Assembly (NCBI RefSeq): GCF_006345805.1
Contig: NC_043008.1
Span: 67,270,001 to 67,334,000, forward strand
Length of the DNA: 64,000 bases
Reading direction: 5' to 3'
Source of the DNA: Octopus sinensis
Lineage: Eukaryota
The notes beneath the pieces were generated by a model. That model was not told where the DNA came from. It saw only the letters and a list, made by a program, of their open reading frames with translations, and ran no database searches. Shown one piece after another: positions 374 through 53,137 of the stretch; position 1 is the stretch's first letter; every line of letters starts with the position of its first letter. A program made the translations under genes and the position numbers.

Positions 374-494
374 TCAGCTTTCCAAAAAACGTGCCCAGGC
401 TGGATTTGAAGGTTCTGGGGGTAAAACCCAAGTATCAGGGATCCGACTGGCACCGGGTGCAGTTTCTGGTGCCAAATAACAATCCCAGTCTCTC
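374..494 (-). CDS. PDCD7: PDCD7 terminal exon 9 (RDWDCYLAPETAPGASRIPDTWVLPPEPSNPAWARFLES*)
   Basis: Translated by hand; tcttatag| acceptor, TGA at 374-376; resembles the PDCD7 C-terminus WDQYLVP...GWVLPPLPSNDIWA. Confidence 0.94.
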
Positions 495-1329: not shown

Positions 1330-1417
1330 CGAATCTGCAGAAAAGACTCCCAATTGTCAATGGCCTGTGTGTAGTATTTCAGGAAAGGGTAACAAGGATC
1401 CATTGAATCAATGACAT
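1330..1417 (-). CDS. PDCD7: PDCD7 exon 8 (DVIDSMDPCYPFLKYYTQAIDNWESFLQIR)
   Basis: Translated by hand; ttccccacag| acceptor, CG|GTGAGT donor, 88 nt, phase 1/2; resembles PFRQYYLQAEHSLPALIQIR. Confidence 0.93.
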
Positions 1418-5247: not shown

Positions 5248-5307
5248 GTTCCTTAAACCCTGATGAAGGGATTTTTAGGTCTTGAAATATTGGACAGTTA
5301 AAAGAAC
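5248..5307 (+). ncRNA. Degenerate minimal type I hammerhead ribozyme, Penelope-associated type
   Basis: CTGATGA(A)-GGGAT/GTCTT stem-GAAA-TATT-GG, with flanks GTTCCTTAA/TTAAAAGAAC able to pair. Confidence 0.45.
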
Positions 5308-5610
5308 AACAATAAATACAAAACAAAGATTACTGGGTAACTTAATCATCGTTACCGCATCTTCCAATCCATTTTACATTGTTTAGCCTTCTATCTCTTT
5401 CTATGTTATATATCAGACAATGCTTCAAGCAAACTTTGACATTTTAGTTATATTTTTAGTTTAGGTGTACCATCGAATTTTGAAAAGAATATAAGTGTAC
5501 CATAAGTGAAAAAAAAAGGTTGCAGAGCACTACAAGAAATCAAAGGGTATGTGTAGGAGCGTTGTTCCAGAAAGGGATATTAGCTAAATGCAAAAAATGT
5601 TTCCACAAAC

Positions 5611-5731
5611 CTTTGCCAAACAGAAGTTGTAGTTCGCGTTTCTTCTCTCGCTTCTCAATTTCTTTCTTAACTTTGTGTGACTTTGCCCGTTCACGTTCTT
5701 TGGTCTCTTCCTGTTCACATTCCAGCATTAC
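5611..5731 (-). CDS. PDCD7: PDCD7 exon 7 (VMLECEQEE...LQLLFGK)
   Basis: ttgttgcag| acceptor, AAG|GTTTGT donor, 121 nt, phase 0/1; resembles VMLEGEQEE...KLFG. Confidence 0.92.
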
Positions 5732-5959
5732 CTGCAACAAGGCACAAACATATTTTAGACAAAGCATCAGATTATAAGCATGAGTGTTAGTGTACAAGCA
5801 TACAAGCATCTATATGCCACCATACACCCACACGCACACATGCAAATATGTCATTACACAACTTTTTTGTATGCGTGTGTAAAGCTGTATCATTATGTTG
5901 ATCAGACTATCAGATGTTATATATCACTGGTCACAATGCGCTTCCAAGACTTTCTTGAT

Positions 5960-6340
5960 TGCAACATTCTTTTTCATCTTGGCCCAAATCATTTAACTAA
6001 ATTGTCTTCCCATTGGTTTGGAAGCCTTCCAAGAGGCCTTCACCAATCTCTTGGAAACCACTCAGCAACTGCACAGGTCCATCTACCAACTGTAAACTTT
6101 GCAACGTGTCCAGTCTAGAGGAACTTGTGCTTTCCATATTCTGCAATCATGTCATTCACTCCGCTCTATTCACAAATTATCTCATTTTAGATATGCTCTC
6201 GCAATGATATTCCTAGAGGCCTTTTGCATCATAGCCAATCGATCTTCTTCCCTCTTCCTAGTAAGCCACATCTCACTGCCATATAACTGCATGTAGAATG
6301 GTACAATTAAAGAGCCTAGCATGTATGGTCATGTCCAGCA
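5960..6340 (-). mobile_element. RTE-type LINE 3' fragment (decayed)
   Basis: Minus-strand RPLGRLPNQWEDNLVK resembles the RTE C-terminal R..GRP..RW.D motif. Confidence 0.6.
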
Positions 6341-7453
6341 TTGCATTGAGCACAAACTTTATTGAGGTAAATGTCTTCCCTCCTACCCTTATTCATCATC
6401 ATCATCATTTAGTGTCTGCTTTCCATGCTGGCATGGGTTAGACAGTTTAACTGAAGCTGGGGGAGGGGTCTGCACCAGGTTTCAGTCTGATTTGGCATGG
6501 TTTCTACAGCTGGATGCCCTTCCTAACACCAATCACTCCAAGAGTGTAATGAGTGATTTTTTTACATGCCACCAGCACAGGTGCCTGTTATGTAACACCG
6601 GCATTGGCCATGACTATAATTTCACTTGGCTCAATGGGTTTTCTCAGGCACAACATATGATCAAAGGTCTCAGTCACTTATTATTTCCTCGGTAAGGCCC
6701 AATGTTTGAAGGGTGCTTTTTAAGGGCTACCAGCACAGGTGCCAGTTACATGACACAGGTATTGGCCATAACTACGATTTCACTTGGCTTGACAGGTCTT
6801 CTATGTATAATTTGATATACATTAATAAAGATAAGTTTAACACATTAAATTAACTTCATTAAAGCTGCCACTGAATTTAGGACATTTATATTACTTATGC
6901 AGTATTCTATATGTTTTAGCTAGAGTATAGTTGGGTCTCAAGGAGGTAGTATAAACTTAGCAATATTTGTTTTATAGTGAAAAGAAAATTTCCATTCAAA
7001 TGGAACGATTTCTGTTCGAGTCTAGCCATTTTAAATTGTAGTGGAAATGCGACCTATGTTACAAATAGGCATATGAATATTGTATGAATTATATAATTGA
7101 AAAATTTCCATATTTTGTACATGCGAGTATATAGGCCTGTAGGCGCAATAGAAAGTGCTCGCAGAGGTTTCCTACCCCTGGGTTAGATAAATATGTATTA
7201 TTATTGAAACATAATATAACTGAATGCCCTTCTGATTGCTAATTCATAATTGTTTTTCTAGAGGGGAATTATTTTTATTTTCCTCTTTCTGACTACCTAA
7301 TCCTAAATTTAACATGAAATATTTTTGACTGACCAGTGATGTTCAGTATTTAACACAGGATCTGTATAAGGGACAACAAAAAAAAAAGCAAATGAAGGAA
7401 AATATTATAATACAAGGGTGTGTGGGTGAACTGGTGAATAATGATAGGTTTAC

Positions 7454-7566
7454 CATAAGGGTACGCTGCTCTGCTTCATAGACATCCATCTGGTTATTCA
7501 GCATCCTTTGTAAGCCAGAGATGTCTTCCTCAAATTTCTTATCAGAATGGAATAATGTATATAAGC
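7454..7566 (-). CDS. PDCD7: PDCD7 exon 6 (GLYTLFHSDKKFEEDISGLQRMLNNQMDVYEAEQRTLM)
   Basis: Translated by hand (not in ORF track); ctccttcag| acceptor, ATG|GTAAAC donor, 113 nt, phase 1/0; YEAEQRTL resembles YEAEERAL. Confidence 0.92.
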
Positions 7567-8484
7567 CTGAAGGAGAAAAACAAAAACATTAAGAAGAAAG
7601 AAATGAATCATATTTTCTTATGATTTAGGGGGATTAATTACACTTTTATAAAACGTTGGTGTAGTTGTTAATAATTGGTGTTAATAATTCATAATTGGTG
7701 GCAAGCTGGCAGAATCATTAACATGCCAGGCAAAATACTTTGTGGCATTTCATCCATCTTTACATTCTGAGTTCAAATTCTGCCACGATTGATTTTGCCT
7801 TGCCTCCTTGTGGGGTGATAAAATAAGTACCAGTTGAACACTGGGGTCAGTGTAAATCAGTTTACTCCCACAAACAGTGCTGGCCTTGTGCCAAAATTTG
7901 AAATCAAAATTATGAATATAGGTAAGGCATCAAACTGGCAGAATCATTAGCATGTAGGGAAAATGTATCTGTTCCAGTCTTTGCTTTCAGACAGCAATGT
8001 ATGCAGCATCACTGTTGCTAAGCTTTGTTGACCCAAGAGCAGTAGCCTTTCCCTCAAGCAACAGTTGGCATGGAGAAGGAAAACTTGCATTCATGGACAA
8101 CTGCTAAAGTTCCATGAAAATAAAAATAAATAAAAAACCCTAGCCTACCTCTGAAGATATAGAAGCAGGTAGATTAGATGATGAACCTTAACACTTAACT
8201 GTGCAATTAAATTTCGAAGTTATTCCAATAATAAGGTTAAATATCTATCAAAAAATAGAATTGGTATTTTCTTCAAGCTTTAAATGAACTTGACATATCT
8301 CAATGGAAAGTCGTTTCAAACATGACATTCTTCAAGAAATGGTAAAGGTAATGAGATTTTTTGAGTGGATACATCTGATTTATGCAGGAATCTAGGATAT
8401 AAAAAACTACGAGGTTTCTTCCTTCCATCTCAAAATGGTCGAAAAAAAAAAAAAAAAAAGAAAGAAAAAAACATGCAAACACAC

Positions 8485-8623
8485 CTTTCTTAGCAACATT
8501 CTCTTTGCGGATTTTCCTCAGTTTACTCAAGTTTCCAATCAGTTCCAGCATTTTGGCAACATCAGACTTCTTCTTACGAACTTCACCCAGGACTGAGTCA
8601 ACAGCCACTTTCATTTCTTTCTC
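8485..8623 (-). CDS. PDCD7: PDCD7 exon 5 (EKEMKVAVDSVLGEVRKKKSD...LSKLRKIRKENVAKK)
   Basis: tttttag| acceptor, AAG|GTGTGT donor, 139 nt, phase 0/1; resembles the PDCD7 motif ELKAAADGVLSEVRKKQAD...LEKLRKLRKE. Confidence 0.93.
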
Positions 8624-9305
8624 CTAAAAATACAAGTAAACCAGTTAGATCATTATCATCATCATCATCATTTAGCATCCGTTTTCCATGCTAGCATGGG
8701 TTGGACGGTCTAACTGGGGTCTGTGAAGCCGGAAGGCTTCATCAGGCCCAGTCAGATTTGGCAGTGTTTCTACAGCTGGATGCCCTTCCTAACGCCAACC
8801 ACTCCGTGAGTGTAGTGGGTGCTTTGAATATTCCGAGAAATACTTCAGTTCTACATTCCCAGTATGAAAGAATCATTTTTGTTAAAACTTTTAATTAAAA
8901 TCACTTTAATTAGTTAAAGAAAGGAAAAAGAGGCAATAGAGGCAATGGTCATATCCTTTTCAAGGCCTGCTAGTTAAATCAATATAAAGATTGTACAAAA
9001 AAGTACACAGACATAACAACATAGATGTAGAAGTGTTGTTATGAACTTAGTCACAGCTCTGGTATTACAGACATGTGATTAGAATGTCACAGGAAAGGCA
9101 AGCAAGATGGATTCTTCAAGCCAAGCCAACAGGTAGGACACAAGGCAGTTGACTAAGAATGAGATGGTTGGGTAATATCCATAGCTTCATTTGGTCACGC
9201 TTGGGAATCCAGTCAAGGAAGTCTAATATTTCTGATAGGAACCTGTGGAGGAGGTGCTTGGAGATTCTACCCCTACAACCCTCCCAGGAATAGTGGGAGA
9301 AGATG

Positions 9306-9342
<37 letters not shown>

Positions 9343-9835
9343 ATAGATAAGGTTGGTCTATGGGATTATCCCACAGACACCGGCCTTATCTATTTTTATA
9401 CTATACTGCTCTGGAGTGTACTTTCTTTTCAGATTTATGATTTATTAATGATATATATATATAATCACTCGTTATGTTTTTTATGCCTGTTTTTTTCATG
9501 TTCCTATAGGTAACATAAATATATTATTGAGGCACTGTTTTACAGCTGAATGTCCTTCTCGACACAAACCCATACCTATTTTCTAAGAGTATATATATAT
9601 ATATATACACATATTAGTCTTGTAATCAAGCAGTTAAAGGGAGAAAAATAGAGAAAGGGTAGGGGGACAGGATAGATTTCTGAATATGCATATTACTGTG
9701 TAAAGCTTATTAAACATGACAAATTGAAATAGAAAATTTATCCAACAAACTAAAAAAAAATTTTTTAAACAAAAACAAACCACCACAACCACAATCATCA
9801 TCCTCATTGTCATCGTCATCATCATCATCCCTTAC

Positions 9836-9967
9836 CTGTTTAATTTGCTGTTCTTTCTGAGATATGGAATCTCTCCAATCATCCAAGGTCCGATGCAGTT
9901 CCTTCCTGAAAGACATAGCCCTTTCTCGTTCTTCATATTTTTTTTTCCGTAAGCGTTTCAGCCTCGC
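9836..9967 (-). CDS. PDCD7: PDCD7 exon 4 (ARLKRLRKKK...LDDWRDSISQKEQQIKQ)
   Basis: tttgcag| acceptor, CAG|GTAAGG donor, 132 nt; LDDWR resembles the IDRWR segment of human PDCD7 as I recall it. Confidence 0.9.
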
Positions 9968-10084
9968 CTGCAAATCATTCAGAGAAAACTCATTTCAAGC
10001 AGAAAGGAACATCATTAAAAATGAAAGCAGAGCAGAGTGCTTCTACACTATAGATAGATATGGTCACAATACAAAACAGAAGTG

Positions 10085-10300
10085 TAAATTATAACTATAA
10101 AATAGAATACAGGTAGATATAGCCACAGTATAAGTAGATCTGGCCATGACACAGGTAGGTATAATCATAAGACAAAATATGGTTACATTATACAGTAGAG
10201 GTAGGTAGGGTCATAATACTGAATATAAATAGTTATGGCCATAATGCAAAATACAGGTAGATTTGGCCACACTACAGTATATAGGTAGATAATATAGCTA
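10085..10300. repeat. Degenerate tandem repeat of about 20-30 bp (atacaggtagatatagccac-like)
   Basis: About seven imperfect copies. Confidence 0.55.
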
Positions 10301-11167
10301 TATATAAGCAATAGTACAATACACGACGGCCATCAAACATATATCTAAAATATGGGCTACAATTGAACTGGGAACTATTCTATTTAAAAAGAAAAATCTT
10401 GTATTGCATGAGAAAAGTTGATATATAGGAATTCTAGTAATATTTGAAAACAATTCTGTAAAGTCAGCCATACTGTGATGAACTTTGTACAAGACTTACT
10501 GTTTCAATTTACACACCATGTGTTGTATGACTTTGATTTTCTTGAGTTTCTACTAACAGAAACTCCATCAGATAGCATCATTTGATATCCAGTTTTACAC
10601 CATGTATTTTCTATCATTCCTGACTTGGTGAGGTTTTCTCCGTTGACAGTTTAATTATCATTATTATTATTACCTGGACTCAAATTACATTTGTACATCC
10701 ATCACAAATAGATGCAGCTTCTTTTATGCTTTTATTTTTAAAGTCGTTTTTCCTTTTTCTCTCATTTTTTTCTCTTTCTCACCTTTTTGGTTCTTTAAGT
10801 CCTCTCCTTCAAACACTTATACATTGAAATCAATGGAGCGAACATCATTATTTTGGTCATCTTCAAACTTCTGCCAAGAAGTGCTATATCGTTTCATTGT
10901 TTATAAACTCTTTATCCATGAATAAAAATTAACAATTTCAGAATAGATCATCAATGGTGTAACATAGGTTGTGAAAGGTGTATGGACTCCACTAGATGGT
11001 CACCTCATAGACATGCATTTGATATAGTCAAAAGTATGTTATAATTAAGGAATGAAACAGCCGAAACCCATTTAGGCCACAGAAAATCCCTACATCCAGA
11101 TACCCTTAATGTTCTCATCCTAGACAAGTATGGTAATATAAAACCCATTTCTTGTTCTTCCTTGTTC

Positions 11168-11375
11168 ATTAACCTCTAAGCATTTAGATTACTCTGTGAA
11201 ATGTAATGTTTATTTGCATTGTTTTGAATTAATCATGCATTATATCACAGCTTTGTGATTGTGTATTTTTAGAATGATATAAGGTAGGCATGAGAGGCTG
11301 GATCCTACCTTTTTGAACATAAAACAGGTAGGATATTTGGGATGGATATGGCCTGTCTAAATCCTAAAGGGTTAA
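11168..11375. mobile_element. Second TTAA MITE family; copies at about 19600-19820 and 61889-62110
   Basis: TTAACC..TAAGCATT...CTAAAGGGTTAA ends and shared internal sequence in three copies. Confidence 0.7.
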
Positions 11376-13914
11376 AATTCAGTATTTACTGCAATGATTC
11401 CATCCCCCACCCTCATGGTTGTAGCTAGATCTAAACTCCTCAATGAAAAACACCAAGTGCTATGAAAAACCTTACAAATCTCACAGATAGAGCAGTTATT
11501 TTGTAACACAAATCTTCCCTCACTCCTCCTGGTGAAAATCTATGCTATGGAAAGCCCAGAGTAATGTTAAGATACTCTAGTATATAGTTCTTTTATGACA
11601 AACAAAATCATAATATCAGAAGCTGGATTACTGCTGAAACAACAGATTCAGTTATCAACAATGAAAGACAACTGGTTTTATTTGGGACTCTTTCAATCCA
11701 CCAGTCTCAGAGAACCTGCAAAATCAATGGATAAAGCCAGATCAGAAATAAAAAAATCTGTACCTTCTTCATCATAACATATCTATTTCTAACACAGCTT
11801 ACTTTGTCACTGATATGTTGAGCAATGGAAATATACTCTGGAGTTATTACCAATTGTCTTCTTTGGGTGAACATGGAACCAAAGATTTTCAGAGCAAGTA
11901 TAAATGGAAGTTGTGATGTTCTTGTCTTTCCTAAAGGCATTAGTAACAGAAAGGAAGCAAAATGTAAAAGCCTTTTAAGATTCCAGAGGCTTTTAATGGC
12001 CAGTGTCTAGAGCTAGTTTTGTGAAAGTAAGCAGACAACAGATAAATTACCCACATGGATAGGGTAACAGTTTATTGTTTATTATTACAGTTAGCATGCT
12101 GAGAAAATTTGGGCATCTTCTACTATAGCTCCAGGCTGACTAAAGCCTTGTGAGTGAATTTGGAAGTTAGAAACTGAAAGAAGCTTGTCACATATGTAAA
12201 TGTGCATGTTGTGTTTGTATATGTACATGTGAGTGTTTGTGTGTATTCTTGTCTTGACAATCACATGATGGTTGTAATAGAGTATCACCATCATCAAGTG
12301 GTGTTGTTCATTTCCAGTCTGGCCACGGGAAAATCATTTTGCTTTGGAAAAGGGATGGGTTGGTGACAGGAAAGGCATCCAACCATAGAATATCTGCCTC
12401 AGTGAATATATCTGACCCATACAAGCATGGAAAAGTAAATGTTAAATGATGATGATAAAGAGGTAATCAAGCACATATTCCTGAGAGCTAAATGAATCAA
12501 AATGTGAAGGATTAAGTGAAATTGTCTTGATATTCATGTAATAAGTTGTAACTGCAATGGATTTAAACATAACACCTAAAAAACAACTGAAAGACAAGTT
12601 GATTTCCAATCCTCTGTGAAAACATGTTTCGTCATAGAGAAATATTACCTAGTTTGGAAGCAGGTGGGGGTTGACAACAGGAAAGGCAACTCTATCCAAC
12701 CCCATGTAAGCATGGAAAAAAAAATGGATGTTAAAATGATGATGACATGAGCCCCTTATCTCAGAGAGACTGTGAAGGTTATAGACACAGTCTATTTGTG
12801 TGTCCCCCCCCCAAAAAAAAAAATTGAAAAAAAAAAAAAAGAAGAAATAGCAGCTTAACATAAATTTCACTTCCACAATGCAAGTGAAGTGATTCCAATT
12901 GAGAACAGAAACCAGAACTTCAATTTCAGTAAGTGGAAAATATTCAACAATAAAATAGCAATGGGGAGGAAAAGTGGAACTGAAAGCCACACCCTCTGGT
13001 TAATGTTTAAATCAATAAATTTTCTCTATGCTCTCTCTTTTGAATACCTTAACCAGTTTCAGGCAGAACTTAATGTGCTTTCTCCAGGTAAAGATGAATC
13101 TGGAAAATTTTAGGAAGATGTGGACAGAGTAGGGAGTAAATGAGTGTCTAGATTTTTTCAAAGCTTTCCAATAAACAATTGGCAGAATGGGTCTAAAATG
13201 TTGCCTGGTTTAAAATCTGCAGCAGGTTTTGGAGTTCTTTTAGCAGAGTTCATTCTCTTGCATTCATTCACAACAGAATGCATGCAAAAGCACACACACA
13301 GAGTTTAAAAGGATAACAAGAAAGTAGACCAATGGTATTTCAATTATTTCATTACAATCATTTTGATTGTTAATAATCAATAATTAGTACATATTATATT
13401 GATAACCATTCACCTCATCAGATGAACATTGGGTATTTCAACATGCTAGCTGATGAGGTGGTTAATTACTGGTAGCACGGTACCACTGTATTGCGCAGAC
13501 TCTCAGATGTTGTTATACACCACTGGTCACAATGTGCTTCCTCACATTGCTATAGCTTTTGAATGATGCCATCCCACTGGCTAAGGCAGACAGATCAACA
13601 TTCCCTCTCAATGGAATACCAATTCGTCGCAGGGTTACTCATTTACTGCTGAGCATAGAGAAATGAAGTGTTTTGCTCAAGAACACAATGCACCTTTGAT
13701 CTGGGAATTGAAACCACAATCCTGTGATCATGAATGCAACACCTTAACCACTGAGCTACATGTCCTCATTATCAATATAATATGTACTGATTAGTCATTA
13801 TCAGCTGTTGAAACAACTGTAATGAAATAAAATTGAAATACCAACAGTTTGCTTTTTGGCCATTGACAATGGCTTAGCTGGCCGAAATTCCAAAGATACT
13901 GTCAAGAACATTCT

Positions 13915-14012
13915 TGTATAAGAATAATAAATTTGTACTCCACAAAAATATAAATTAACCCATCAGATTAATGCAAAATTGTTTTCATTATAAGTGAACA
14001 TAAAAACAAACA

Positions 14013-14055
<43 letters not shown>

Positions 14056-14468
14056 GAAGGTTTGGAAGTGATGAACAGGTATTATATATTATAAAAAATA
14101 AGGTACACAGAAATTTGGATGGTTTTATATTCACAGATTTTTATTAATATGTCACATGTTTTTATAAATCAGATATTAGCGCTTGCATCTACTCTAGTAG
14201 AAGCTCCAGATTCTACTAGAGCAGATGTTCAGTTATAATGAAAACAATTTTACATTAATCTGATGGGTTACTTTATACTTTTGTGGAGTACAAATTTATT
14301 ATTCCTATACATATTCTACTCTAGTAGAATCTCCAAATCTGAAGATTCTACTAGAGTAGATGCAAGGGCTAATATATGATTTATAAAAACACGTGACATA
14401 TTAATAAAAATCTGTAAATGTACAACCATCCAGATTTCTGAGTACCTTATTTTTTCTAATATATATAT
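13915..14468. repeat. Interleaved inverted repeats A-B-A'-B'
   Basis: A 13915-14001 pairs with 14225-14311; B about 14081-14205 pairs with about 14340-14468. Confidence 0.85.
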
Positions 14469-15859
14469 ACACACATATATATATATATATATGGCTATTG
14501 CCAGTGTCATTTAAATGGCACCCATGAAATCATAATTGTGGCCGTTGTCAGTAGCATGATCCTTAAATGTTGGGACTCATGGAGGTGAGGGATGAGGTTG
14601 TGAAGCATAATCTTCAAATGTCAGGCCTCACAGAGGCAATATAACCTTTGGCGATATGCTGGGTTTGAGAATACTTGTCAAGCCAAATGAAACCACAGTC
14701 ATGGCCATTACTAGTGTCATGTAAATAACACCCATGAAATTGTAGTCATGGCCGTTGCTGGCAGTCAAGTAAATGGCACCCATGCCAGTGGCATGTAAAA
14801 AACACCCATTACACTTTTGGAGTAGTTGGCATTACGGTTAGGAGTTAAAAACCATGCCAAATCAGACTGGAACCTGCTGCAGCTCTCCAGCTTGCCAGTT
14901 CCAGTTAAACTGTCTAACCCATGCCAGCATGGAAAGTGGACATTAAATGATGATGATGTAGGAGAATGCAATGTAAGCATAGTATAGAGAATAAGGGTTA
15001 GTGCTCAGATTATTAAGAATTTTTTACTCCAACCTCTTCATCCAGGGCCGGCACCTCAGGCATTGAAAATTAGTTTTAAGAATGATCCTTGCCAAGCCGT
15101 TATGTAGATAGAAAGGCAGATAAACATGGCTAGGCTTAATCCGTATATCTATGTGAAATACAAGATACAAATTATGGAATAAAAAATACTCTTCTCCCAA
15201 GGAGGATCACCAAGCCTAGCTTAAACAAATTCATTGAAACTTATGTTGTTACACACACCTATGACATCATGCACAGCTGTTATGTATGAATTTGATTATG
15301 GCATAAGTCACTGATCTCCCAAATCAGCTTTCGAGATAAGACTGTTATGTAACACCTTTTGTTTTCTTTATTCTGTAATCTGCATTTTGTATTCCATGCG
15401 TATATACACATGTTAAGCATACCTGTGTTTATCTTCCTTTCTATCTGTGTGTGTGTGTGTGTGTGTGTGTTTGTGTGTGAGCTAAAGAAAGAAAGAAAAC
15501 AGAAATATAAAACAGTGAAATACAAATAAATTACAGCTGAAACAAACAACATAAAAAAACCATATCATTATATGTTTCCACCTTGTTATTCATTGGTTGG
15601 TTTGATTGTACATCCAACCAATGAAAACCACTAACTGAAAGTTGAATCTTCATCGTAGCTTTAAAGGAAAAAAGAAATATTTTATTAATGAATTCAATTA
15701 ATTTATTAGCTAAGAAGGAAATGTGATGCCCATAGGTGACTTATGCTTCAAAGAAGTTGAAAATATTCAGGCAAAGAAAAAAAAGTGTTACCATTAAACT
15801 TGGAATTATTATTGGTGGAATTTGAAGTTGTTTGGAATCAAATAGAATATTTGCTGTAG

Positions 15860-16910
15860 TGTCAAAATATATAGCTATTGTGACAAGATGATACCAACAA
15901 TTGTTATAAGTGTTATAGCATTATATCAACACATGTTATATCTACATGATGAATACCAACATGTGTTATAAATGGGTGTTATAACAGTTCAATAATGACA
16001 CATGCTATGACTATGTAATATTGATGTGCTATAACAAGACAGTACCGACACATGCACAACATGGTATCAAATATGCCATAACACAGTGATATTGACATGT
16101 TATAACAGTGATATTAACATGTGCCATAACAATATTGACACATAACAGTAAAATCAACATATACTATAAGCAGTGTAATATTGGTCATTGCACAACAATG
16201 TGATATCAACATTTACTACAACATAATTTTGGCTACTACACAACAATGTGATATCAATATGAACTATAACATGATATTGGCTAATGCACAATTACATAAT
16301 ATCGATATGAGCTATGACATGACATTAGCTCAATGCCATAACAGTGCAACATTGACATATGCTATAAGCTATAACAAACATCATAACAATGTGATATCAA
16401 CACATGCAGTGACTGTAATATCATCAGATGTAATAGCAATTTATACTGACATGTGCTGTATCAACAAGCTCTGTAAACAATATTGATTTCAAATTTTGGC
16501 ACAAGGTCAGCAATTTTAGGAGAAGGAGTTAAGTCAATTACATTGACCCTCTGAGTTCAACTGGTAGTTATTTTATTGATCCCAAAAGGATGAATCGAAA
16601 AGTCAACCTTGGTGGAATTTGAACTCAGAACATAATGATGAATGAAATGCTGTGAAGCATTTTACCTGGCATGCAAATGATTCAGCCAGCTTGCCACCTT
16701 AGTTCTGTAAACAATATTAACAAGAAGAAATAACAGGATATCAACTATAATAACAAGCTATCAAAAAGAAACATACTGCTAATGCTATATAACATGACAT
16801 CAAGGTACACCCCATCAATATGATAATATAATGTTGCTATCACACATCTTTAAGTGTACGATAACAATAACCTATCAATACATGTTATAAACATGATATC
16901 CACTTATATT
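15860..16910. repeat. Degenerate 24/48-bp minisatellite interrupted by a SINE
   Basis: Recurrent ataacagtgatattgacatgtg-like units; cacaa(c/t) register at 16191, 16239, 16287. Confidence 0.7.
16485..16703 (-). mobile_element. SINE with 15-bp target-site duplication
   Basis: TCTGTAAACAATATT at 16470-16484 and 16704-16718. Confidence 0.85.
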
Positions 16911-16973
16911 GCAGAAATACAAAAAGGCACTGATAGGGATGGTCACTAAAAACACATAATTGCTTGAACTTAC

Positions 16974-17181
16974 AATGAAAAGAAAAGAAAAAATGTCACT
17001 CCCTGACACACAAATATTGTGCATTAATGTAAAGGATATTCAAAGTAAAAGGATATATGAGTTTCGAAGCCCATTCTTTGATCAACTTTGATATATTAGC
17101 CAGAGCTTTAATATAATTTTTGTTTTAAACAAAGGATATATATGTTTTGTTTTATCTGATTTTTTTTAAAGAGGCACAAGG
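16974..17181 (-). other. Candidate poison cassette exon in PDCD7 intron 3
   Basis: Acceptor ctccacttgcctgtttcag| before 17181, donor ATT|GTAAGT after 16974, 208 nt, in-frame TAA at codon 10; contains all three U11-site motifs. Confidence 0.5.
17031..17139 (-). promoter_or_regulatory. Candidate USSE (U11 snRNP-binding splicing enhancer): tandem ATATCCTTT motifs plus a third copy
   Basis: Plus strand aaaggatat at 17031-17039, 17048-17056 and 17131-17139, i.e. ATATCCTTT on the PDCD7 sense strand. Confidence 0.75.
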
Positions 17182-19139
17182 CTGAAACAGGCAAGTGGAG
17201 TAACTGCCTAGATTGGTCAGTCAAAATGGAATATAGACTTCCTAAAGGTACACCATGTATATTTCCAATAGGTCACACCAGGGAAGCTTGAGCCATACAT
17301 ACTGCAACCAAATAGGAATTCAGTTAAAGTTTCAGATATGACAGACAATATAGATTCTTTTTAAATAAATAATATATACGTATGTATTTATATAACCTTG
17401 CAAACCAATCCCCTATCCAGCCGTTTTTCTACTCACCTTGTGTCTTGAGGGACCACATAGACACCTCATTGCCATGATCTATCTCTTTGCAGCTCCTACT
17501 GATCATTTCATTCTTCTTTTTCTCTCCCTCTCCAACTAAATGTGTGTAACCATGCAGATCCTCTTCAAGAACCTGCTCTGAACCACCCAACTTCTTTCAT
17601 ACTTCTCATATCCTAGCATGAAGATGACTCCACTCTCTCAGGGTTTGTAGTCATGTGAGCTGCATGGCAACCTTACTGGTGCTGGTGGCATGATTAGAAG
17701 CACCCAGTACATGCTGTAAAGTGGCTTGCATTAGGAAGCGCATCCAGCCATAGAAACCATGTCAAAGCAGACACAGGAGCATGATGCAGTTCTTGGACAC
17801 AATGGATCCTGTGAAATCACCCAACCCATGCCAACATAGAATATGGATGTTAAATGATGATGAGGAGGAGGATATGTGTGTGTGTAAAAAATGGTTAACA
17901 GATTTATTTTTTTACATTGTTGTTTATAATTTTAATTCTATTTAATTATTAAAATAATGCCTTAACTCTTTCTGGAAATGGTTTTCCCTCACTTTTCAAC
18001 AATAAAATATATTATATTAAAATATTGAAATCTTTTGAAGAAGGCTCATACCCAATTTCTTTGCAGAAAATGGAGGAACCAATTAAATCAATGCAAATAT
18101 ATTTTGGATATGTAATTTTTATAGACATTGAAGAATATGGAACTCTTTTAGCAAAGTGTCCAATAGAGTATTTGGTCATTTTTTACAAAAGCTAAAACAT
18201 CAAAACAGAACTGGTAAATTAAATATTTCACATAAAACACACTCTTACACATCAACATGACATCGTTTTCAAACACCAAATATGAAAAGATGGCTCTTTT
18301 CACCTTCCAACACCTTAACTGATGTTGGAATGTTCTTTTGGGTGGAGGGATCTTTGTCTCTCTAGCTTGCTCGATATATATTCAAATGCCACACCAAGCA
18401 CCTATTTCTCTATCACTTCTGCTTTATTACATTAAATAGTTCAAGTATTGCTATGTAGTTAAGAGGCTTGCCTCCTAACCATGTTTCAGATTCAATCCCA
18501 CTATGTGGCACCTTGGACAAATGTCTTCTACTACAGCCCCAGGCTGGCCAAAGACTTATGGGTGGATTTGGTAGCAAAAGCTATAAGAAGCCAGTCATAA
18601 TATATGTGTGAGTATGTGTGTGTTAGTGTCTCCTTGTTTTAACAATGTGTAATAATTGTAGATGAATGTCACTATCAGACAAATGTTGTCATTTGTTTTG
18701 TGACATGTTCAGAAAAATTACCATTCTTGGAAACAGGTGGGGGTTGACAATGGTCATAGAAAATTGCCTCAACAAATTCCTTCAGATCCATGCAAACATG
18801 AGAAAGTGAACATTATAAAAAATGATGATGATGATAGACTGATATTAGATACTCCTAAACAGCCATTTTTATTTTTGTAATACTCCATTCATGTTTCCTT
18901 TAATCCTTTTATTACCATATTTCCATTCAAATACTCTGCCTTTGTTTAAATTAATTTTGAAACTAATAAAGAATTTAGTAAAATAACTGTCATTATTACA
19001 CTGGTGTTTCAAACTGATTAAAATAAAATTCTGATGGAAAGTTTTAATTTAGACCACTTTAAAACAGGAAGCTTGTATCATGGAACCAGGAGTGATATCA
19101 GGCAAGTTAGCATCAAAAGGATTAATAACTTATTTCTTT

Positions 19140-19540
19140 TCATTGGCACTTGAGCCTCGTGCTAGTAGGGTGCTAAGAGCACATCCAAGCGTGATTGTTG
19201 CCAGAGCGGCTAACTGGCTTCTGTGCCGGTGGCACATAAAAGGCACCATTCGAGTGTGATCGTTACCAGCATTGCCTTACTGTCACCTGTGTTGGTGGTA
19301 TGTGTAAAAAGATTCAAGCGAGGTCGTTGCCAGTACTGCCTGACTGGCCCCCATGCCAGTGGCACGTAAAAGCACCCACTACACTCTTGGAGTGGTTGGC
19401 ATTAGGAAGGGCATCCAGCTGTAGAAACTCTGCCAGATCAAGATTGGAGTCTGGTGCAGCCATCTAGTTTGCCAGTCCTCAGTCAAATCGTGCTAGCATG
19501 GAAAGTGGACTTTAAATGATGATGATGATGATGATGATTT
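19140..19540 (+). repeat. Abundant (TGA)n-tailed repeat (SINE or LINE 3' end); copies at about 3230-3405, 6395-6800, 8650-8825, 14490-14960, 17660-17870, 20200-20500, 21300-21990, 43130-43480, 51010-51300
   Basis: Shared ggcattaggaagggcatccagctgtagaaac...ccaacccatgccagcatgg...ttaaatgatgatgatg in both orientations. Confidence 0.85.
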
Positions 19541-22500
19541 TACTCATGGTATTCCAACCTTTCATTTTCCTTTTTTCATCCATTCATCATCATTATCCTT
19601 TAACCCTTTAGAATTCAGATTATTCTGTCGAGTATAATGTTTATTTATTCACGTTGTTTTGACTTAATCTCACATTTATCTTTGAGATATCGATGATGTG
19701 GTTGTCTATTTTTAAAATGATACTGCAAGGTAGGTGTGAGAGGCCAGATCTGGCCAGTTTGAACATAAAACAAGTACAATATTTTGGCTGGGTATGATTG
19801 GTTTAAACACTAAAGGGTCAAGGTCTATTTTTCCATGCTGGTATGGGTTGGATGGTTTAACAGGAGCTGGCCTGCTGAAGAGCTGCCTCGGTTCCATGTC
19901 TGCTTTGGCATGGTTTTTACATCTGGATGCCCTTCCTAATGCCATTAAGGGTCTAACTATCCAAGTTGAATTCTCATTAATAGGATCATACGTTTTGTGC
20001 CTATGATTTTTGTTTCATTCAGTTCTGATCTCAAGTCATTATCAAACAGCCCCAGATTGGTTCATATATGTATATGATATGTATATACAAGAAAAAGAGT
20101 TTCAATGATAATCAGAAATCAATCTAATTCAAATGTAATTATCTAAAGAAGAGGGCAACAGTTTAGAAAATTTTACCATATTTTCCTTGCAAATTACTTG
20201 GTGACCCTGCCAGTGTTGGTGCCATGTAAAAAGCATCCAGTCCACACTGTAAAGTGGTTGGTGTTTGGAAGGGCATCCAGCTGTAAATTCTATGCCAAAA
20301 CTGACTTTACCTGTGCTGGTACCACATAAAAAGCACTCAGTCCACTAAGTGGGGTAGTTGGTGTTAGGAAGGGCATCCAGCTGTAAAAGCATGCCTAAAC
20401 AGACACTGAAGCCTGGTGCAGTCTTTTGCTTAGCCAGCTCCTGTTAAATCATCCAACCCATGCCAGCATGGAAAGCAGTTGCTAAATGATGATGATGATG
20501 ACAAGTCAACATTGTATATAGTGTAAGCATAAACATTCAAACATTGTCACCGTCTTTCCAAATCCTGACGCATTTCACATGGAATTTTTGGTCCTCTGGA
20601 GTCATCTTGGTGTTTTAGTTGACTACCTTTGGGGCTGAAAAATTCAACTTGTATGCTGGAAAATATGGCAACTTATTAATCCAGCCACTGTCTTTCTTAA
20701 TTTTTGTTATTTAGTCAGTTATTTTTTTTATCATCTATTTATTTCATCAATCTGTATATATTCTACCTGTATTTCTACTGTTTCTTTTAAGCAGCTATCA
20801 TTATGTTATTTCCACTAGTTTCACCCTCAGATAGAAATTATGTCTGCAACACCATCAAGATAATATCTTGGTTACCTAGGTCCACAAGTTGATCAGCTTC
20901 TACAAAACCCAACTTACATTCAAGAAACAGCCTCTTCATAAAAGCCACTTATTAAAACACCAACTATGTTCAGTGGTACTTTAACTTCAGCAAATTCTTA
21001 GGTTTTCCTGTGTTAATTACAATTACAAATGAACCACAAGGTTGGAAGGTGAAAGTTTTTCTCCAACAAACATCATCGTCACAAGATCAAACTTGTGATT
21101 TATGCCGTTTAGAGTAGGTTTTTACTTAATACTCCATAAACAAGACTCAAAAATATATTTGTTTCAAGTCTACCAGGTTTTCAAAACAAGTATCACTTTA
21201 GTATTTATGATACAATAATTAGTAGCTGTACTTGCATAGCTACTAACTGTAGCTATGCAAATAAAAAATATGCATAGTGTACCACTGCATTACTTAATTA
21301 ATCATCATCATTTAATGTCTGCTTTCCATGCTGGCATGGGTTGGATGGTTTGACCGAGGACTGGCAAGCCAAAAGGTTGCACCAGGTTCCAGTCTGATCT
21401 ACCAAAGATTCTATAGCTGGATGCCCTGCCTAATGCCAACCACACCAATAGTATAGTGGGTGCTTATTACATGCCACCAGCATGAGGGCTAGTCAGGCAA
21501 CACTGGTAACAACCAGACATGAATGGTGTTTTTCACATGCCACCAGCACAGGACCAGTCAAGTGGCACTGGTATTGATCACATTCGTATGGTGCATTTTA
21601 TGTGCCTCCAGAACAGGAGCCAGTCTGGTGGGACTGGCATTGACCACACTAATATGGTGCTTTTTACATGTCAGCTGGCACAGGTACCAGTTTGGCGGTA
21701 CTGGCATCGGCCACGACAATGATTTCACTTGACTCAACAGGTCTTCTCAAGCACAGTATATTGCCCAACGATTGAAGAGTACTTTTAAATGGGGCGGTTA
21801 TGCGACACTCGCATAGACCACAGTTAGGGTCTCACTTGGCTTGCCAGGTCTTCTCAAGCACAGCATATCTCCAATGGTCTCAGTTGATTGTTATTGCCTC
21901 AAAGGTCATGCTTCACCACCTCATCCCAGGTCTTCCTGGGTCTACCTCTTCCACAGGTTCCCACAACCGTCAGGGTGTGACATTTTTTTCATACAGCTAT
22001 CCTCATCCATTCACAATACAATAACCTTCTCTGTATCATTCCAATCTTGTTGAAGATGATGTATGATCGTTCATCTTTTGCCAAAAGACCTGCACAAATT
22101 ATTTGTTTTAGAGAGATCAAATGTATGTGCTATATATTAGCTCATCCCCTCCATTAAATCTATGTTGCCTGAACAGGTGCATGGTGTACCACATACCAGG
22201 TGTTGAAGTGATCATAGAGCAACTTGAGATGAAGTGTTTTGCTCAAGAACACAATGCACCATCTGGTCTAAGAATAAAAACCATGATCACATGATCATGA
22301 GTGCAAACCCTAGGCCATCACACTGGCACGAGGACACAAATGTGTAGAGGAGGAGTATATACTGTTGATAGAATGACCCCTATTTTACTGGTACTTGCTT
22401 AGACGAACCTTTTGGCAGGGTGGGAACAAAAATCAGTCACCAACCCTACAAGTTTTGGACACTTGATGTAAGGAGGATTAAATTTGAATATGGTAGGAAA

Positions 22501-22959
22501 TTATCCCAGTATGCTTACATTTTGCCACTCCAACACCCTAACAATAGTGATAATGATGGGGGGGGGTTCTTGTAGCAGAAAGTCAGAAGAATTGTTGTAA
22601 ACTAATCACAGTACATGTCTTATTTTCCATCACCCAAGTGGAATGAAGAATAAATGTGACTCGAGTGAAATTGGAACTCTGAACATAATGAACCATGACT
22701 AAATACTATAAACCATTTAGCCCAGTATCTTAAAGTCAATAACATCCCTACCCTTAACTACCATCATAGACATAAGGCCACATAGTTTTGAGAGATGGTA
22801 TAAATGATAAAACTCCCCCTTCCATTTCCTCAACTGATTACTCAAGGTAAATTTAAAATACTACCACCCACCAAGCAAGCAAAAGAGCTAAACTAAGATC
22901 ATAAAGAGACATAACTCAATGCTACAATGCTGTGTACAACTTCCTTCCAATTTTGAAAT

Positions 22960-23374
22960 TCAGAGCACCATTTATAATAATGGTTTCTAAACTTAGCACA
23001 CGGCCAGAAATTTTTGAAAGGAAGAGTTAGTTGATTAAAGTGATCCCACCAATACTTGAGTGGTATTTTTATTTCATCATCCAAATGGATGAAAGGCAAA
23101 GATGACCAGGGTGGTATTTGAACTCAGATCATAAAAAGCCAGAAGAAATACTGCCTAGCATTTTGTCTAATACCCTAATGCTTCTGCCAATCCATTGCCA
23201 CCTTATTTAATAAAAACGATGAGGATGATGATGATGGTGACATTGGTAGTGGTGGTTGGGGAGGGTAATTTTAATTTTATTCCAAATATTTGGGAAGTCA
23301 AAGCTGAGAACTTGCCACATAATGAGATACCAATAAGAAACATAATCGGTGTCCTATTGATCATGATATCTACT

Positions 23375-23406
<32 letters not shown>

Positions 23407-23960
23407 CCTTTCTACTGTAGGCACAAGGCCTAAAATTTGGGGGGAGGGGATAAGTCGATCACATTGACCCCAGTGTTTCACTAGTACTTATTTAATTGAC
23501 CCCCAAAAGGATGAATGACAAAGTCAAACTTGACAGAATTTGAACTCAGAATGTAGCAGCAGATGAAATACTGCCACCTCACCGCCTTAATAATAATAAT
23601 AGTAGTAGTAGTAGTAGTAATGGTTTCAAATTTTGCTACAAGGTGAGCAATTTCAGGAGAGGGGCAAGTCAATTACATTGACCCCTATGCTCAAATGGTA
23701 CTTATTTTATTGCCCTTGAAAGGATGAGCGATAAAGTCAATCCCAGTAGCAGTTGAACTCAGAATGAACTGCCACAAGTAGTTTCGTCCGGCATGCTAAT
23801 GACTCTGCCAGCTCACCACTTTAGTAGTAGTAGTAGTTTATAGCTTTAGCAAGGTGACAAATTTGGGAGGCAGGAAGGTCAGTGAAATTATCCCCAATAC
23901 GTGACTGGTAATCTATTTTATTGACTCTGGAATGACAAAAGGTCAAGTCAGCCACAGCTA
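22960..23960 (-). mobile_element. Cluster of four copies of the same SINE family, minus strand
   Basis: Reverse-complement units (gaatttgaactcaga, gtacttattt) separated by (AAT)n/(AGT)n. Confidence 0.8.
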
Positions 23961-25259
23961 ATAACGATGAAGATGGTAATATAAACAGTAATCATTATGA
24001 TGATTTTTGTGGAATCTGTTTGCAACATAACTTCTGGTTTGGCTCACTGCTCCCTCACCTCTCTTCCTCCTATTGTATGTATGTATGTACGCACACACAC
24101 ACACTTATATATTTTTTGACACAGTTATTAACCTACCACTCTTAAAAATAAAATTCCATCAAAATGGAAAGAACAATTATGAATCTTTGTTTTTCAAATT
24201 TCTCTTAAGAAAACTTATAAATAAATATTCATTTTTCTCCGTTAAATTTTAATAAGTTACTTTCCTCACAATAAGAAATGCTATGTATCTATCTATTTGC
24301 TTATCTTCCTATCACTGTTTTTACCTCAATCTCTCACTCAATACACAAGTAACCTAGATGACTCACAGGCAATGTCCACTTCAGTTTCCTGCATTCAATC
24401 ATTTCAGAATGTTGTTGAATGATTATTTGCTTACAACCATTTTAAAATTCATTTTATTATTAAACAGTTTGTCATGAATGAAGAATGAGTAGTTTCACAA
24501 AGTGTAAGCAAGTGATACAACAAGAGGATTCCATCACTTTTTATCTTGAGCTCTCACTGAATACACTCTCTGTCTCTCTCTAACTCTCTTGCCATATGTA
24601 TGTCTGATTCTGTGTGCATGTTTATTTTCTCTTAAAAGAAGTAATTCATTGCAGAATGGAACAAAAAAATTATGAATCTCTTAACTTATGAATAAATATT
24701 TGTTTTTCTCTTACTGAATTTTAATAACTATATTGTCAGGAATTCATCAGAGGTAAAAATTCTTGCTGGTCAGTGTAAATTTACTCTACCAAGGGGATCC
24801 CACCAGCATCCTAATTATGAAAATATAAAATTTTCTAAAATTATAGTATATATACAGACACTGGCTGTCAAAATTTTCTATCTGCGGTTTGTTGTATAGA
24901 ATGCTGCATGTAGAAAAATAGTTAAAAACTAATATGTATTTTGATCTATCAAATGTTTCTTTTATTTCAATACTGTTTTATGTTCCTTTGTTTAATCCTT
25001 TGTGGAATATATATATACCTGTATTTCCTTGAAAGAAAGAATTACTTATTCCAGGTATAACATAAGGGGTCATGCACTAGTAGTAATAATATCTCAAGAA
25101 ATGTTTTAGGCAACTCTGAATTTTAACATTGTTGCTAATGAAACTGGAAATATCCCCCATAAGAAACAGGGCATTAACAGATGAAATGTCAGAGTGATGT
25201 CTGCCTTGGCAGACATCTTGGTCACATAGATCAGTTAGTAAAACAATCAATAAACTTAC

Positions 25260-25349
25260 CCTTTTCTTTAGTCTTGCTTTCACCTTCTTTTCCAGTTCTT
25301 CAATCAGATTTTTATCAGTGATTTTCCGACGTAAATCTTCCAATGTCTC
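25260..25349 (-). CDS. PDCD7: PDCD7 exon 3 (ETLEDLRRK...KARLKKR)
   Basis: ttttttgtag| acceptor, AGG|GTAAGT donor, 90 nt, phase 0/0. Confidence 0.88.
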
Positions 25350-25859
25350 CTACAAAAAATACGTTTTTCAGGAATATATAAGTAATACAATTTTTTTGCT
25401 TTTGTCTTTATATTGGTTGGTTGGTTTATCACAGTCAACACCTCACTTGCAATGTCTCAATATTTTGGCATCAAAATAAAAATCAACCCTAACCCTAGTA
25501 CTCAAGTGGTACCATATTTTATAGACACTGAAAGAATGAAAGGCAAAGCTGACCAACTCCCCACCCCATATAGCGATGATAAAGTGTTGTAAGCAAGATG
25601 ACAAAGGGAAATGCAGTAACAAGTGAGTTTTAGAATTAACCCAAGAAAAACCTGCAGACTTGAGTGTGGATTATGAAAGGATCAGATCATTATGAAAGGA
25701 TCAGATCTTGGAAAATGAAGCAACCAAAACGATTAGGGATATCTGCAAAGGACAATCTTCTGGAGACATATAAACTAATGCAACTGTGAGGAAGGATAGA
25801 CTAAGTATCAAACTTTCATGATACCCTTAAAGCCAGGAACTTTTCAGTACCCCCTCATA

Positions 25860-26846: not shown

Positions 26847-26990
26847 CTTTGTTGCTTCGATTTTTCTAATTTCAGCCAACCATTCCTCTTCAGTGGCAGT
26901 TTCATGAATATTCTCTAGGGTTTTCTTTAATTTATGAAGTTGTCCAGCAGTCAGCAGCATTTGACGGACAAGATTCTGTGATTCCCAGAT
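26847..26990 (-). CDS. PDCD7: PDCD7 exon 2 (IWESQNLVRQ...IEATK)
   Basis: ttattcag| acceptor, AAG|GTAACA donor, 144 nt, phase 0/0, helical sequence. Confidence 0.85.
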
Positions 26991-29469: not shown

Positions 29470-30729
29470 CGTTATGGTTGAAGGTTTCTTTGCAGGCCGG
29501 TCCTGGATTTTCGTGGAAAACTTTTGCTTAATCCATTCTTTGTCTTGTTGTCTTTGGAGTTGTAAGGCATCATCGATTTGGGAATATTCAGAATCTACAG
29601 AACTGTCAGGTTTTTGTGGGATCCTGTTCCCATAAACTGGCGTCAGAGGAGGTGGAACACTGAAGTTTGATGTCGCTAAAGTCACATCAGACAGTCCACT
29701 GTTTGATGGAGTGTTAAAATTATTATCCCCGTGTAATTGATTCGTATTTAAGGTGTCGGCCAGAGGAGGGGGCGGGGGAGAAATAAAACTGGGACCGAGA
29801 GGGGGAGGAGGGGGAACAGAAGTGGCATTGGATGGGATGCTAGAAACAATGGAATTAGAACTGTCGGTTCCTAGATACATCGGTGCAGAACAAGGTTTCA
29901 AGTACTGTGGAGGCAGTGGTGATGGACCAGCAGAGGATGGGGCAGATGAAGTATGGGGTATCACCGGTGGTAGTGGTAGGGGTGGCAGAGGCGGCAGGGA
30001 AGGTGGGGGACACGATGTGTCGAGGCCGGGGAAAGGGGGCAGGTTGAAGTTGGCCGGATACTCTGGTGTTGCAACGTTCTTCTGTTGGGGAATGTAATTC
30101 ACTCCCGAGTAGAATCCAGCTTGGTCCCTGATGGGTGGTGGCAGCGGTGGTTGAGGACGAGTCGGTGGTGGCTGTGACGGTAACCTTGTCGTCACTTGTT
30201 GATGCATGTGTAATGGCGGTGGGCGTGGCGGCGGTGGTGGTGGTGGTAAGTTAGTGTTAGGAAACTGTTCTGGTCTGAAACCGCTTCTGCTGTATTTCGG
30301 CGGGTAGTTGTTGTCATTAGTGATTGGTGGAAGAGAGTTCGAATGTAACATGTTCCTCGTGTTATTGTTGTTGTTGTTAGTATTACTAGACCTTGGATGA
30401 TCAGAATAATTATACGGTGGCAAAGCTCCTTCAGTTCGGCCGTAAGGTGGGGGGTAGTTTTTGGAGTCATGATCTTTATAATAATTTCCCTCATCAGGAT
30501 GGTTATATCTGGTACCCCGGTGCTGTTGTTCGCTAGGGGGAAAGTTGCGGAACGTACGTTGGCTCTCGCCGTAGGGTCTGGAAGAGAAGTTGTCATTATT
30601 TGTGTCATATGGTTGATGTTGTTGTGATGGAGGTAGTGGTGATGGAGGTAGTGGTCTACTCTGTTGGCCACGTTGGTGATGCTGATGATAATATGTATCA
30701 TCACTGTAAGCCGATGATGACGGATTCAT
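29470..30729 (-). CDS. PDCD7: PDCD7 / U11-59K coding exon 1 (420 codons; Pro-rich, Q/N/Y-rich low-complexity N-terminus)
   Basis: ORF 29416..30747; ATG at 30729 (MNPSS...); donor ACG|GTATGT, phase 0; splices in frame to eight downstream exons whose product resembles PDCD7. A small upstream coding exon is possible (see findings). Confidence 0.85.
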
Positions 30730-53119: not shown

Positions 53120-53137
53120 ATACACTCACACATATAC

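What the first reader, a model, noticed from the sequence alone, without database searches (positions are those of the whole stretch)
17031..17139. USSE-like tandem U11-binding sites in an intron of the U11-59K (PDCD7) gene: candidate minor-spliceosome feedback loop
Seen: the PDCD7 sense strand reads ATATCCTTT-tactttga-ATATCCTTT (17056 to 17031), with a third perfect ATATCCTTT 83 nt upstream, in an apparently repeat-free patch of a 15-kb repeat-laden intron. RTATCCTTT is the U12-type 5' splice-site consensus, yet all eight PDCD7 introns here are U2-type. My rough estimate is about one chance copy of this 9-mer per 64-kb strand, so three within 109 bp is unlikely to be chance. Established: tandem, non-spliced U12 5'ss motifs (USSE) in SNRNP48 (U11-48K) and RNPC3 (U11/U12-65K) bind U11 snRNP and activate an upstream U2 3'ss, giving unproductive mRNA; PDCD7 encodes the 59K partner of those proteins. 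Inference: this lineage regulates 59K the same way. I do not know of a report for a molluscan 59K gene; the literature needs checking.
Basis: partly seen in the sequence, partly recalled or inferred. Interest (0 to 1): 0.92.

Follow-up and report, generated by a model that had tools for sequence, protein, structure and literature searches.

The report
Minor-spliceosome feedback switch in octopus PDCD7
An octopus gene for a minor-spliceosome protein (U11-59K/PDCD7) has three perfect decoy splice signals clustered in one intron, while the two genes that carry this signal in other animals lack a perfect pair here, so a known self-limiting splicing switch has likely moved to a new gene, though the predicted dead-end RNA has not been seen.

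Summary
Observation confirmed. Three perfect ATATCCTTT motifs (17139, 17056, 17039; minus strand) lie on the sense strand of the 15.3-kb intron 3 of a nine-exon PDCD7 gene whose eight introns are all GT-AG without U12 donors. The patch is single-copy. Perfect pairs are not enriched genome-wide (229 vs 240 control), but only about 0.001 is expected in PDCD7's introns; triples occur at 15 places, and this is the only one that neither looks like a tandem repeat nor lies opposite an open frame. New here: SNRNP48 has an intronless coding sequence, and neither it nor RNPC3 nor six other minor-spliceosome genes has a perfect pair (370 kb read). A candidate U2 acceptor lies 42/125 nt upstream; using it gives a stop after 9 codons. 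Against: contigs of three RNA-like runs showed no such splice (two cross the acceptor unspliced; tables were cut), deep conservation is untested, and another animal's PDCD7 has no pair. Best reading (0.6): a USSE-like U11 feedback element relocated to 59K; chance 0.22. The scan earlier noted ordinary SNRNP48 USSEs in two other animals, none in PDCD7.

The parts
17131..17139 (-). U12-type 5' splice-site motif 1, ATATCCTTT (single, upstream)
   Evidence: duplex with this genome's U11 5' end -6.6 kcal/mol
17048..17056 (-). U12-type 5' splice-site motif 2, first of the tandem pair
   Evidence: duplex -8.2 kcal/mol, against -7.6 for the real RNPC3 U12 donor
17031..17039 (-). U12-type 5' splice-site motif 3, second of the tandem pair (8-nt spacer)
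   Evidence: duplex -6.5 kcal/mol
17182..17221 (-). Candidate U2 acceptor: branch-like CTGAC (A at 17217), pyrimidine tract, CAG ending 17182; inferred, use not seen
   Evidence: 15 of 20 pyrimidines, one of 11 such YAG sites in intron 3; branch A 35 nt from the AG with two AGs between
16974..17181 (-). Predicted poison exon, 208 nt, in-frame TAA after 9 codons, ending at a GTAAGT donor (GT at 16973); inferred
   Evidence: no joint seen among rows shown
9968..25259 (-). PDCD7 intron 3, GT-AG, 15,292 nt, rich in interspersed repeats
29470..30729 (-). PDCD7 coding exon 1 (proline-rich)
26847..26990 (-). PDCD7 exon 2
25260..25349 (-). PDCD7 exon 3 (donor that would splice to the candidate acceptor)
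9836..9967 (-). PDCD7 exon 4
8485..8623 (-). PDCD7 exon 5
7454..7566 (-). PDCD7 exon 6
5611..5731 (-). PDCD7 exon 7
1330..1417 (-). PDCD7 exon 8
374..494 (-). PDCD7 exon 9 (last coding exon)

Best explanation
Three perfect U12-type donor motifs sit on the sense strand of intron 3 of the U11-59K (PDCD7) gene and likely act as a USSE-like U11 snRNP landing pad that is predicted to switch on a U2 acceptor 42-125 nt upstream, which would give a stop-containing dead-end RNA and so lower 59K when U11/U12 snRNP is abundant. Shown: the motifs, their host gene and strand, single-copy status, complementarity to this genome's U11, and the lack of a perfect pair in the stretches read around SNRNP48 (intronless coding sequence) and RNPC3. 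Inferred from the human SNRNP48/RNPC3 mechanism: U11 binding without splicing at the motifs, exon definition with the acceptor at 17182|17181, a 208-nt exon to the GTAAGT donor at 16973 (or a longer retained exon), then NMD or nuclear retention. Inferred history: the loop moved to 59K in a lineage whose 48K gene lost its introns.
For: Chance of a perfect pair in PDCD7 introns 0.0012; of 15 genome-wide triple sites only this one is neither repeat-like nor opposite an open frame. U11 snRNA present, 5 matches over the Rfam cut-off, and pairs with all three motifs. SNRNP48: one copy, a 451-codon open frame covering human 48K residues 50-326 without an intron, no RTATCCTT on either strand in 30 kb. 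RNPC3: keeps a real U12 intron (GTATCCTTT...ATCCTTAAC...CAG), so the minor spliceosome is in use, yet no RTATCCT[TC] on the sense strand in 33 kb downstream and no pair, strict or relaxed, in 100 kb. No perfect pair near ZMAT5, SNRNP25, SNRNP35, RBM41, CENATAC, ZRSR2. A pyrimidine-rich acceptor falls within 125 nt upstream of the pair, chance about 0.09 (threshold chosen after the fact). In run X20 (another organism label) the contig over the motifs has 4 differences and no gap in 264 nt, against 125 in 3,254 nt for the 7 other listed intron pieces (Poisson P 0.027).
Against: No exon 3 to 17181 joint among the 15 joint rows shown (2,336 hidden); in 2 of 3 RNA-like runs one unbranched contig crosses the candidate acceptor unspliced (X5 17009-17302, X12 16938-17335). 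These runs are only guessed to be RNA and contigs drop rare forms, so the test is weak. The conservation signal is from one close relative chosen for holding this stretch, one other piece is as conserved (1.2%), and the places of the 4 differences were not shown. An unnamed animal with the same nine-exon layout has no pair and nothing in intron 3 (L124). Perfect pairs are no rarer than the reversed control genome-wide, and a scan of many genomes will meet some chance pairs. Relaxed (one-mismatch) pairs turn up 3 more times in 401 kb, one 4.9 kb upstream of SNRNP48. ZCRB1 was not found, and gene ends were not mapped, so a USSE elsewhere is not excluded.
Confidence: 0.6

Rival explanations
1. 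Chance cluster: an AT-rich 9-mer, helped by a short local duplication, happens to sit three times in a long intron of a minor-spliceosome gene and does nothing.
For: Pairs are as common as the reversed control (229 vs 240); the motif is AT-rich in a 30-44% GC window; no splice to the candidate acceptor among rows shown; no pair in another animal's PDCD7; the site was picked after the fact from a very large scan.
Against: 0.0012 expected in this gene, 0.016 in eight control genes, where none was found; the flanks of the three motifs differ, so it is not an array; both known host genes lack the element here; lower divergence in X20.
Confidence: 0.22
2. U11 binds the motifs but acts by holding the transcript (detained intron 3, nuclear retention) rather than by activating the acceptor at 17181.
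For: RNA-like contigs cover the patch unspliced in 3 of 3 laid runs (runs chosen for holding it). U11 bound to a USSE retains 65K and 48K RNAs in the nucleus (PMC5473595, passages). In the oyster PDCD7 cluster 9 of 15 listed proteins start with intron-like residues fused to the exon 4 equivalent and run on through the later exons, a hint that this intron is removed late there.
Against: In the human case retention needed splicing of the upstream intron (PMC5473595). Low-depth intronic cover is also what ordinary pre-mRNA or DNA gives. The oyster DNA was not seen.
Confidence: 0.12
3. One of the motifs is a real U12 donor (alternative AT-AC/AT-AG intron after a cryptic exon), as in SRSF10 or Drosophila Urp, where major and minor sites compete.
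For: Perfect consensus and a candidate acceptor 42 nt upstream of motif 1 would define a small exon; competing U2/U12 sites regulate SRSF10 (PMC8199999, passages) and fly Urp (PMC2831892, passages).
Against: Only one U12 branch-like match in the 7 kb downstream (11052), with no good acceptor seen beside it and 1.1 kb from exon 4; one donor would suffice, three are present; no joint seen.
Confidence: 0.06

Closest known systems
USSE of SNRNP48 (U11-48K), poison-exon/NMD type (Verbeeren 2010, not held; described in PMC5473595 introduction and PMC8329584 passages)
   Same: Tandem U12-type donor motifs inside a U2-type intron of a U11 snRNP protein gene; candidate U2 acceptor upstream; predicted early stop.
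   Different: Host is PDCD7/59K; three motifs; deep in a 15-kb repeat-rich intron; the predicted exon would contain the motifs; splicing and ultraconservation not shown; this genome's SNRNP48 coding sequence has no intron.
USSE of RNPC3 (U11/U12-65K), long 3'UTR and nuclear retention type (PMC5473595)
   Same: Motifs would lie inside the unproductive exon; the host protein does not itself read the donor, so the loop would be cross-regulatory as argued for 65K.
   Different: Here in a coding-region intron, not the 3'UTR; RNPC3 of this genome shows no pair in 100 kb.
Competing U2/U12 splice sites in SRSF10 and Drosophila Urp (PMC8199999, PMC2831892, passages)
   Same: Minor-spliceosome level read out by alternative processing of a splicing-factor RNA; lineage-specific origin (Urp).
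   Different: Those U12 sites are spliced; here no fitting U12 branch point and acceptor were found.

Membership tests
[quoted passage not shown] | Tandem repeat of U12-type 5' splice-site consensus on the sense strand, non-coding | tested here: met
[quoted passage not shown] | Host gene encodes a U11/U12 di-snRNP protein | tested here: met
   PDCD7 by Pfam and named orthologues; PDCD7 = 59K (PMC3584512 table). Host is not one of the two published ones.
[quoted passage not shown] | Motifs complementary to the organism's U11 snRNA 5' end | tested here: met
   (computed duplex only)
[quoted passage not shown] | Motifs are not used as splice donors | tested here: inconclusive
   No fitting U12 branch point; contigs run through motifs 1-2 (X5) or all three (X12, X18) unbroken, but joint table cut
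[quoted passage not shown] | An upstream U2 acceptor is activated and gives an unproductive isoform | tested here: inconclusive
   Candidate acceptor and early stop exist; use not seen in 3 contig sets, 2 of which cross it unspliced
[quoted passage not shown] | High conservation from acceptor to motifs across species | tested here: inconclusive
   1.5% vs 3.8% differences in one close relative; no distant cephalopod DNA reached; absent in one unrelated animal
[quoted passage not shown] | Effect depends on U11 base pairing (mutation and compensatory rescue) | not testable with these tools
   needs a minigene
U12-type intron | U12 donor at the intron start plus U12 branch point 10-20 nt before the acceptor | tested here: not met
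   Motifs lie mid-intron; intron 3 has a GTAAGT donor; no perfect U12 branch point at exon 4

The most novel reading that the evidence does not exclude
The minor-spliceosome feedback loop has changed host gene: in the octopus lineage SNRNP48 became intronless and RNPC3 lost its element, and a new three-site USSE arose in PDCD7, making U11-59K the dial that sets U11/U12 level. It would be the first USSE outside SNRNP48 and RNPC3.
Probability: 0.45. Interest if true: 0.82.

Novelty: new variant of a known kind. Interest (0 to 1): 0.62.

Why it matters
Two reviews state that USSEs or such regulatory cooperation are known only for SNRNP48 and RNPC3 (PMC6865273, PMC8329584, passages). A working copy in the third member of the 48K-59K-65K chain, in a genome where both known hosts lack a perfect pair, would show that what is conserved is the feedback on the U11/U12 particle, not the gene that carries it, and that the element can arise anew. 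It gives a testable case of regulatory rewiring after intron loss and suggests searching all U11/U12 protein genes, not two, in each lineage.

Tried and rejected
No RNA holder on record was listed (20 holders, 9 only guessed to be RNA); unlaid rows are not used. The one read-laying run covered 16400-25500 at 88% likeness and was flooded by interspersed repeats, so joints and loose ends at exon 3 and at 17181 could not be read. X18's contig stops at 17177, 4 nt inside the candidate acceptor, without a loose end; one study only, not counted. The bin 17008-17311 has summed depth 44.7/22.8/26.1 in the RNA-like runs against 5.1 in X20, but the listed contigs explain only 3-6 of it and the tool bars ranking by depth; not counted; no look-alike found in the genome. 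Metagenome scan with a cephalopod alignment: 596 stretches, none related; with a bivalve-like alignment: 4 loci. Homologue search with exon 1 was crowded by proline-rich words; no truncated protein ending in the predicted poison peptide was among 2 hits or the aligned homologues, weak evidence. Recalled RNPC3 motifs failed; RNPC3 was then found through RBM41. A recalled ZCRB1 motif gave 73 matches that look like a repeat family, so ZCRB1 was not checked. No Rfam family in the window. Niemela 2015, Turunen 2013 and Verbeeren 2010 are not held, so the published distance rule and species lists, including any mollusc entry or supplement, were not seen. Literature searches showed no USSE in PDCD7 or in cephalopods; subscription papers are not covered. 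Rejected: multi-copy repeat, tandem array, codon by-product (no open frame of 60 codons over it).

Full report
Observation. The window holds 7 matches of RTATCCTTT on both strands; shuffles give 1.78 on average. The patch matches only itself in the 2.72-Gb genome, lies in no tandem array and under no open frame of 60 codons.

Host gene. Pfam PDCD7 hits two exons in the window. A nine-exon model gives 735 codons and a stop, identical to Octopus vulgaris PDCD7 over the last 272 residues; all eight introns are GT-AG with no U12 donor, and intron 3 spans 25259-9968. The same cluster holds a 735-residue Octopus sinensis PDCD7 on a contig as long as this window's contig, so the genome is most likely that species. 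PDCD7 is the U11-59K protein that binds 48K and 65K (PMC3584512, passages).

Chance. Perfect pairs within 30 nt occur 229 times genome-wide against 240 for the reversed pattern, and 8-mer pairs 971 times: no enrichment overall. What is unusual is the place: 0.0012 pairs are expected in PDCD7's introns. Four templates for a pair with a third site about 25-90 nt away gave 15 distinct places. Thirteen look like tandem or degenerate repeats (two read directly, the rest judged from the printed match), one lies antisense to a 101-codon open frame, and one is this site. These templates were set after seeing the site, and a scan over many genomes raises the chance of one such hit, so I keep chance at 0.22.

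Anatomy. This genome has U11 snRNA (5 matches over the cut-off); its 5' end pairs with the three motifs at -6.6, -8.2 and -6.5 kcal/mol, against -7.6 for a real U12 donor. The best acceptor nearby ends at 17182, with 15 of 20 pyrimidines, one of 11 such sites in the intron (chance about 0.09 in 125 nt) and a branch-like CTGAC 35 nt upstream, though two AGs lie between. It is 42 nt before motif 1 and 125 nt before the pair. Splicing exon 3 to it gives a stop after 9 codons; a GTAAGT donor at 16973 would close a 208-nt exon that contains all three motifs. Only one U12 branch-like match lies downstream in the intron, far from exon 4, so the motifs are unlikely to be donors.

The two known hosts. 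SNRNP48 was found once, confirmed against human 48K, and its coding sequence is one open frame of 451 codons; no RTATCCTT occurs on either strand in the 30 kb round it. RNPC3, identified by its RRM2 exons, keeps a real U12 intron before its last coding exon but has no RTATCCT[TC] on the sense strand in the 33 kb after it and no pair in 100 kb. Stretches round ZMAT5, SNRNP25, SNRNP35, RBM41, CENATAC and ZRSR2 have no perfect pair either; names other than PDCD7 and SNRNP48 rest on Pfam hits or on my recall of the protein motifs. With one mismatch allowed, weak pairs appear 4.9 kb upstream of SNRNP48, near ZRSR2 and at 11349 in PDCD7. ZCRB1 was not located and gene ends were not mapped.

RNA. Twenty runs hold the stretch; none is on record as RNA. 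I laid 4 of them, three guessed RNA and one from another organism label. Repeats flooded the tables. No exon 3 to 17181 joint is among the 15 rows shown (2,336 hidden). In X5 and X12 one unbranched low-depth contig crosses the candidate acceptor; in X18 the contig stops 4 nt inside it. So the patch is present in these assemblies in unspliced form and the predicted splice was not seen; contigs drop rare forms and an NMD target is expected to be rare, so this lowers the reading only a little.

Conservation. In X20 the contig 16886-17149, which covers all three motifs but not the acceptor, has 4 differences and no gap in 264 nt; the 7 other listed pieces have 125 in 3,254 nt, each with gaps (P 0.027). 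The run was picked for holding this stretch, one piece beside exon 3 is as conserved, and the four places were not printed. No squid or bivalve DNA was reached. One unnamed animal in metagenome contigs has the same nine-exon layout, a single ATATCCTTT in intron 2 and no pair (L124), so the element is not a general feature of PDCD7. In the oyster cluster 9 of 15 listed proteins begin with intron-like residues joined to the exon 4 equivalent, an unexplained hint about the same intron.

Mechanism and comparison. In human SNRNP48 and RNPC3 a tandem of U12 donors binds U11 without being spliced, activates an upstream U2 acceptor, and yields an NMD target or a nucleus-retained RNA (PMC5473595, introduction read whole and passages; PMC8329584, passages). 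The element is reported in plants and animals and as absent in Diptera (PMC3584512, passages), and only in those two genes (PMC6865273; PMC8329584). The octopus site meets the sequence features, in a third host; the functional features are inconclusive or untested, so I file it as USSE-like, not as a proven member. Best reading 0.6; rivals are chance 0.22, U11-dependent retention 0.12, a real U12 donor 0.06. Eight literature searches showed no USSE in PDCD7 or cephalopods, but the three primary papers with species lists were not held. Earlier scan notes describe ordinary SNRNP48 USSEs in an annelid and a sea urchin; if right, they make the intron-borne 48K element the likely ancestral state, but I did not test them.

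Verdict. Real and improbable in place, a plausible relocation of a known feedback element, not yet shown to work. New variant of a known kind; interest 0.62.

Noticed in passing
G000:C1:165,891,960-165,893,250 (L042), minus: SNRNP48 is single-copy with an intronless coding sequence, likely a retroposed replacement; it sits about 8 kb from a nicotinate phosphoribosyltransferase/QPRT-like exon (name recalled).
   Followed up: yes
G000:C8:5,423,135-5,421,034 (L078), minus: RNPC3 keeps a GT-AG U12-type intron with perfect donor and branch point before its last coding exon.
   Followed up: yes
G000:C7:83,905,163 (L158), minus: A one-mismatch pair (GTATCTTT...ATATCTTT) about 4 kb upstream of the ZRSR2-like zinc-finger exon; could be chance or a weak element.
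   Followed up: no
G000:C16:4,021,609 and 4,021,779 (L131), plus: Two ATATCCTTG 170 nt apart in a local duplication about 6 kb upstream of the single-exon SNRNP35 coding sequence.
   Followed up: partly
L124:3565-3614: In another animal's PDCD7 intron 2, a single ATATCCTTT lies 41 nt after a weak AG; the only perfect motif in 12 kb, not beyond chance.
   Followed up: partly
proteins P0012, P0160-P0162, P0164-P0168: Oyster-cluster PDCD7 products that start in intron-like sequence fused to exon 4 and continue through later exons; the named oyster model P0157 skips exon 3.
   Followed up: partly
G000:C9497, C8591, C8901, C6303 (L050, L064, L054, L092): Small contigs carry divergent, compact U1A/U2B-like, RNPC3-like and ZMAT5-like genes with very short introns, suggesting a second eukaryote (parasite) in the assembly that also has a minor spliceosome.
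   Followed up: no
G000:C18:12.40-12.44 Mb and 12.54-12.58 Mb: CENATAC (CCDC84) exons appear twice with equal scores, a recent duplication or an assembly duplicate; no U12 donor motif on the sense strand of the first copy.
   Followed up: no
window 51545-53125, minus: LINE-type reverse transcriptase fragment (RVT_1), interrupted by a stop.
   Followed up: partly
window 17008-17311: Excess summed depth in three RNA-like runs not explained by the listed contigs.
   Followed up: partly
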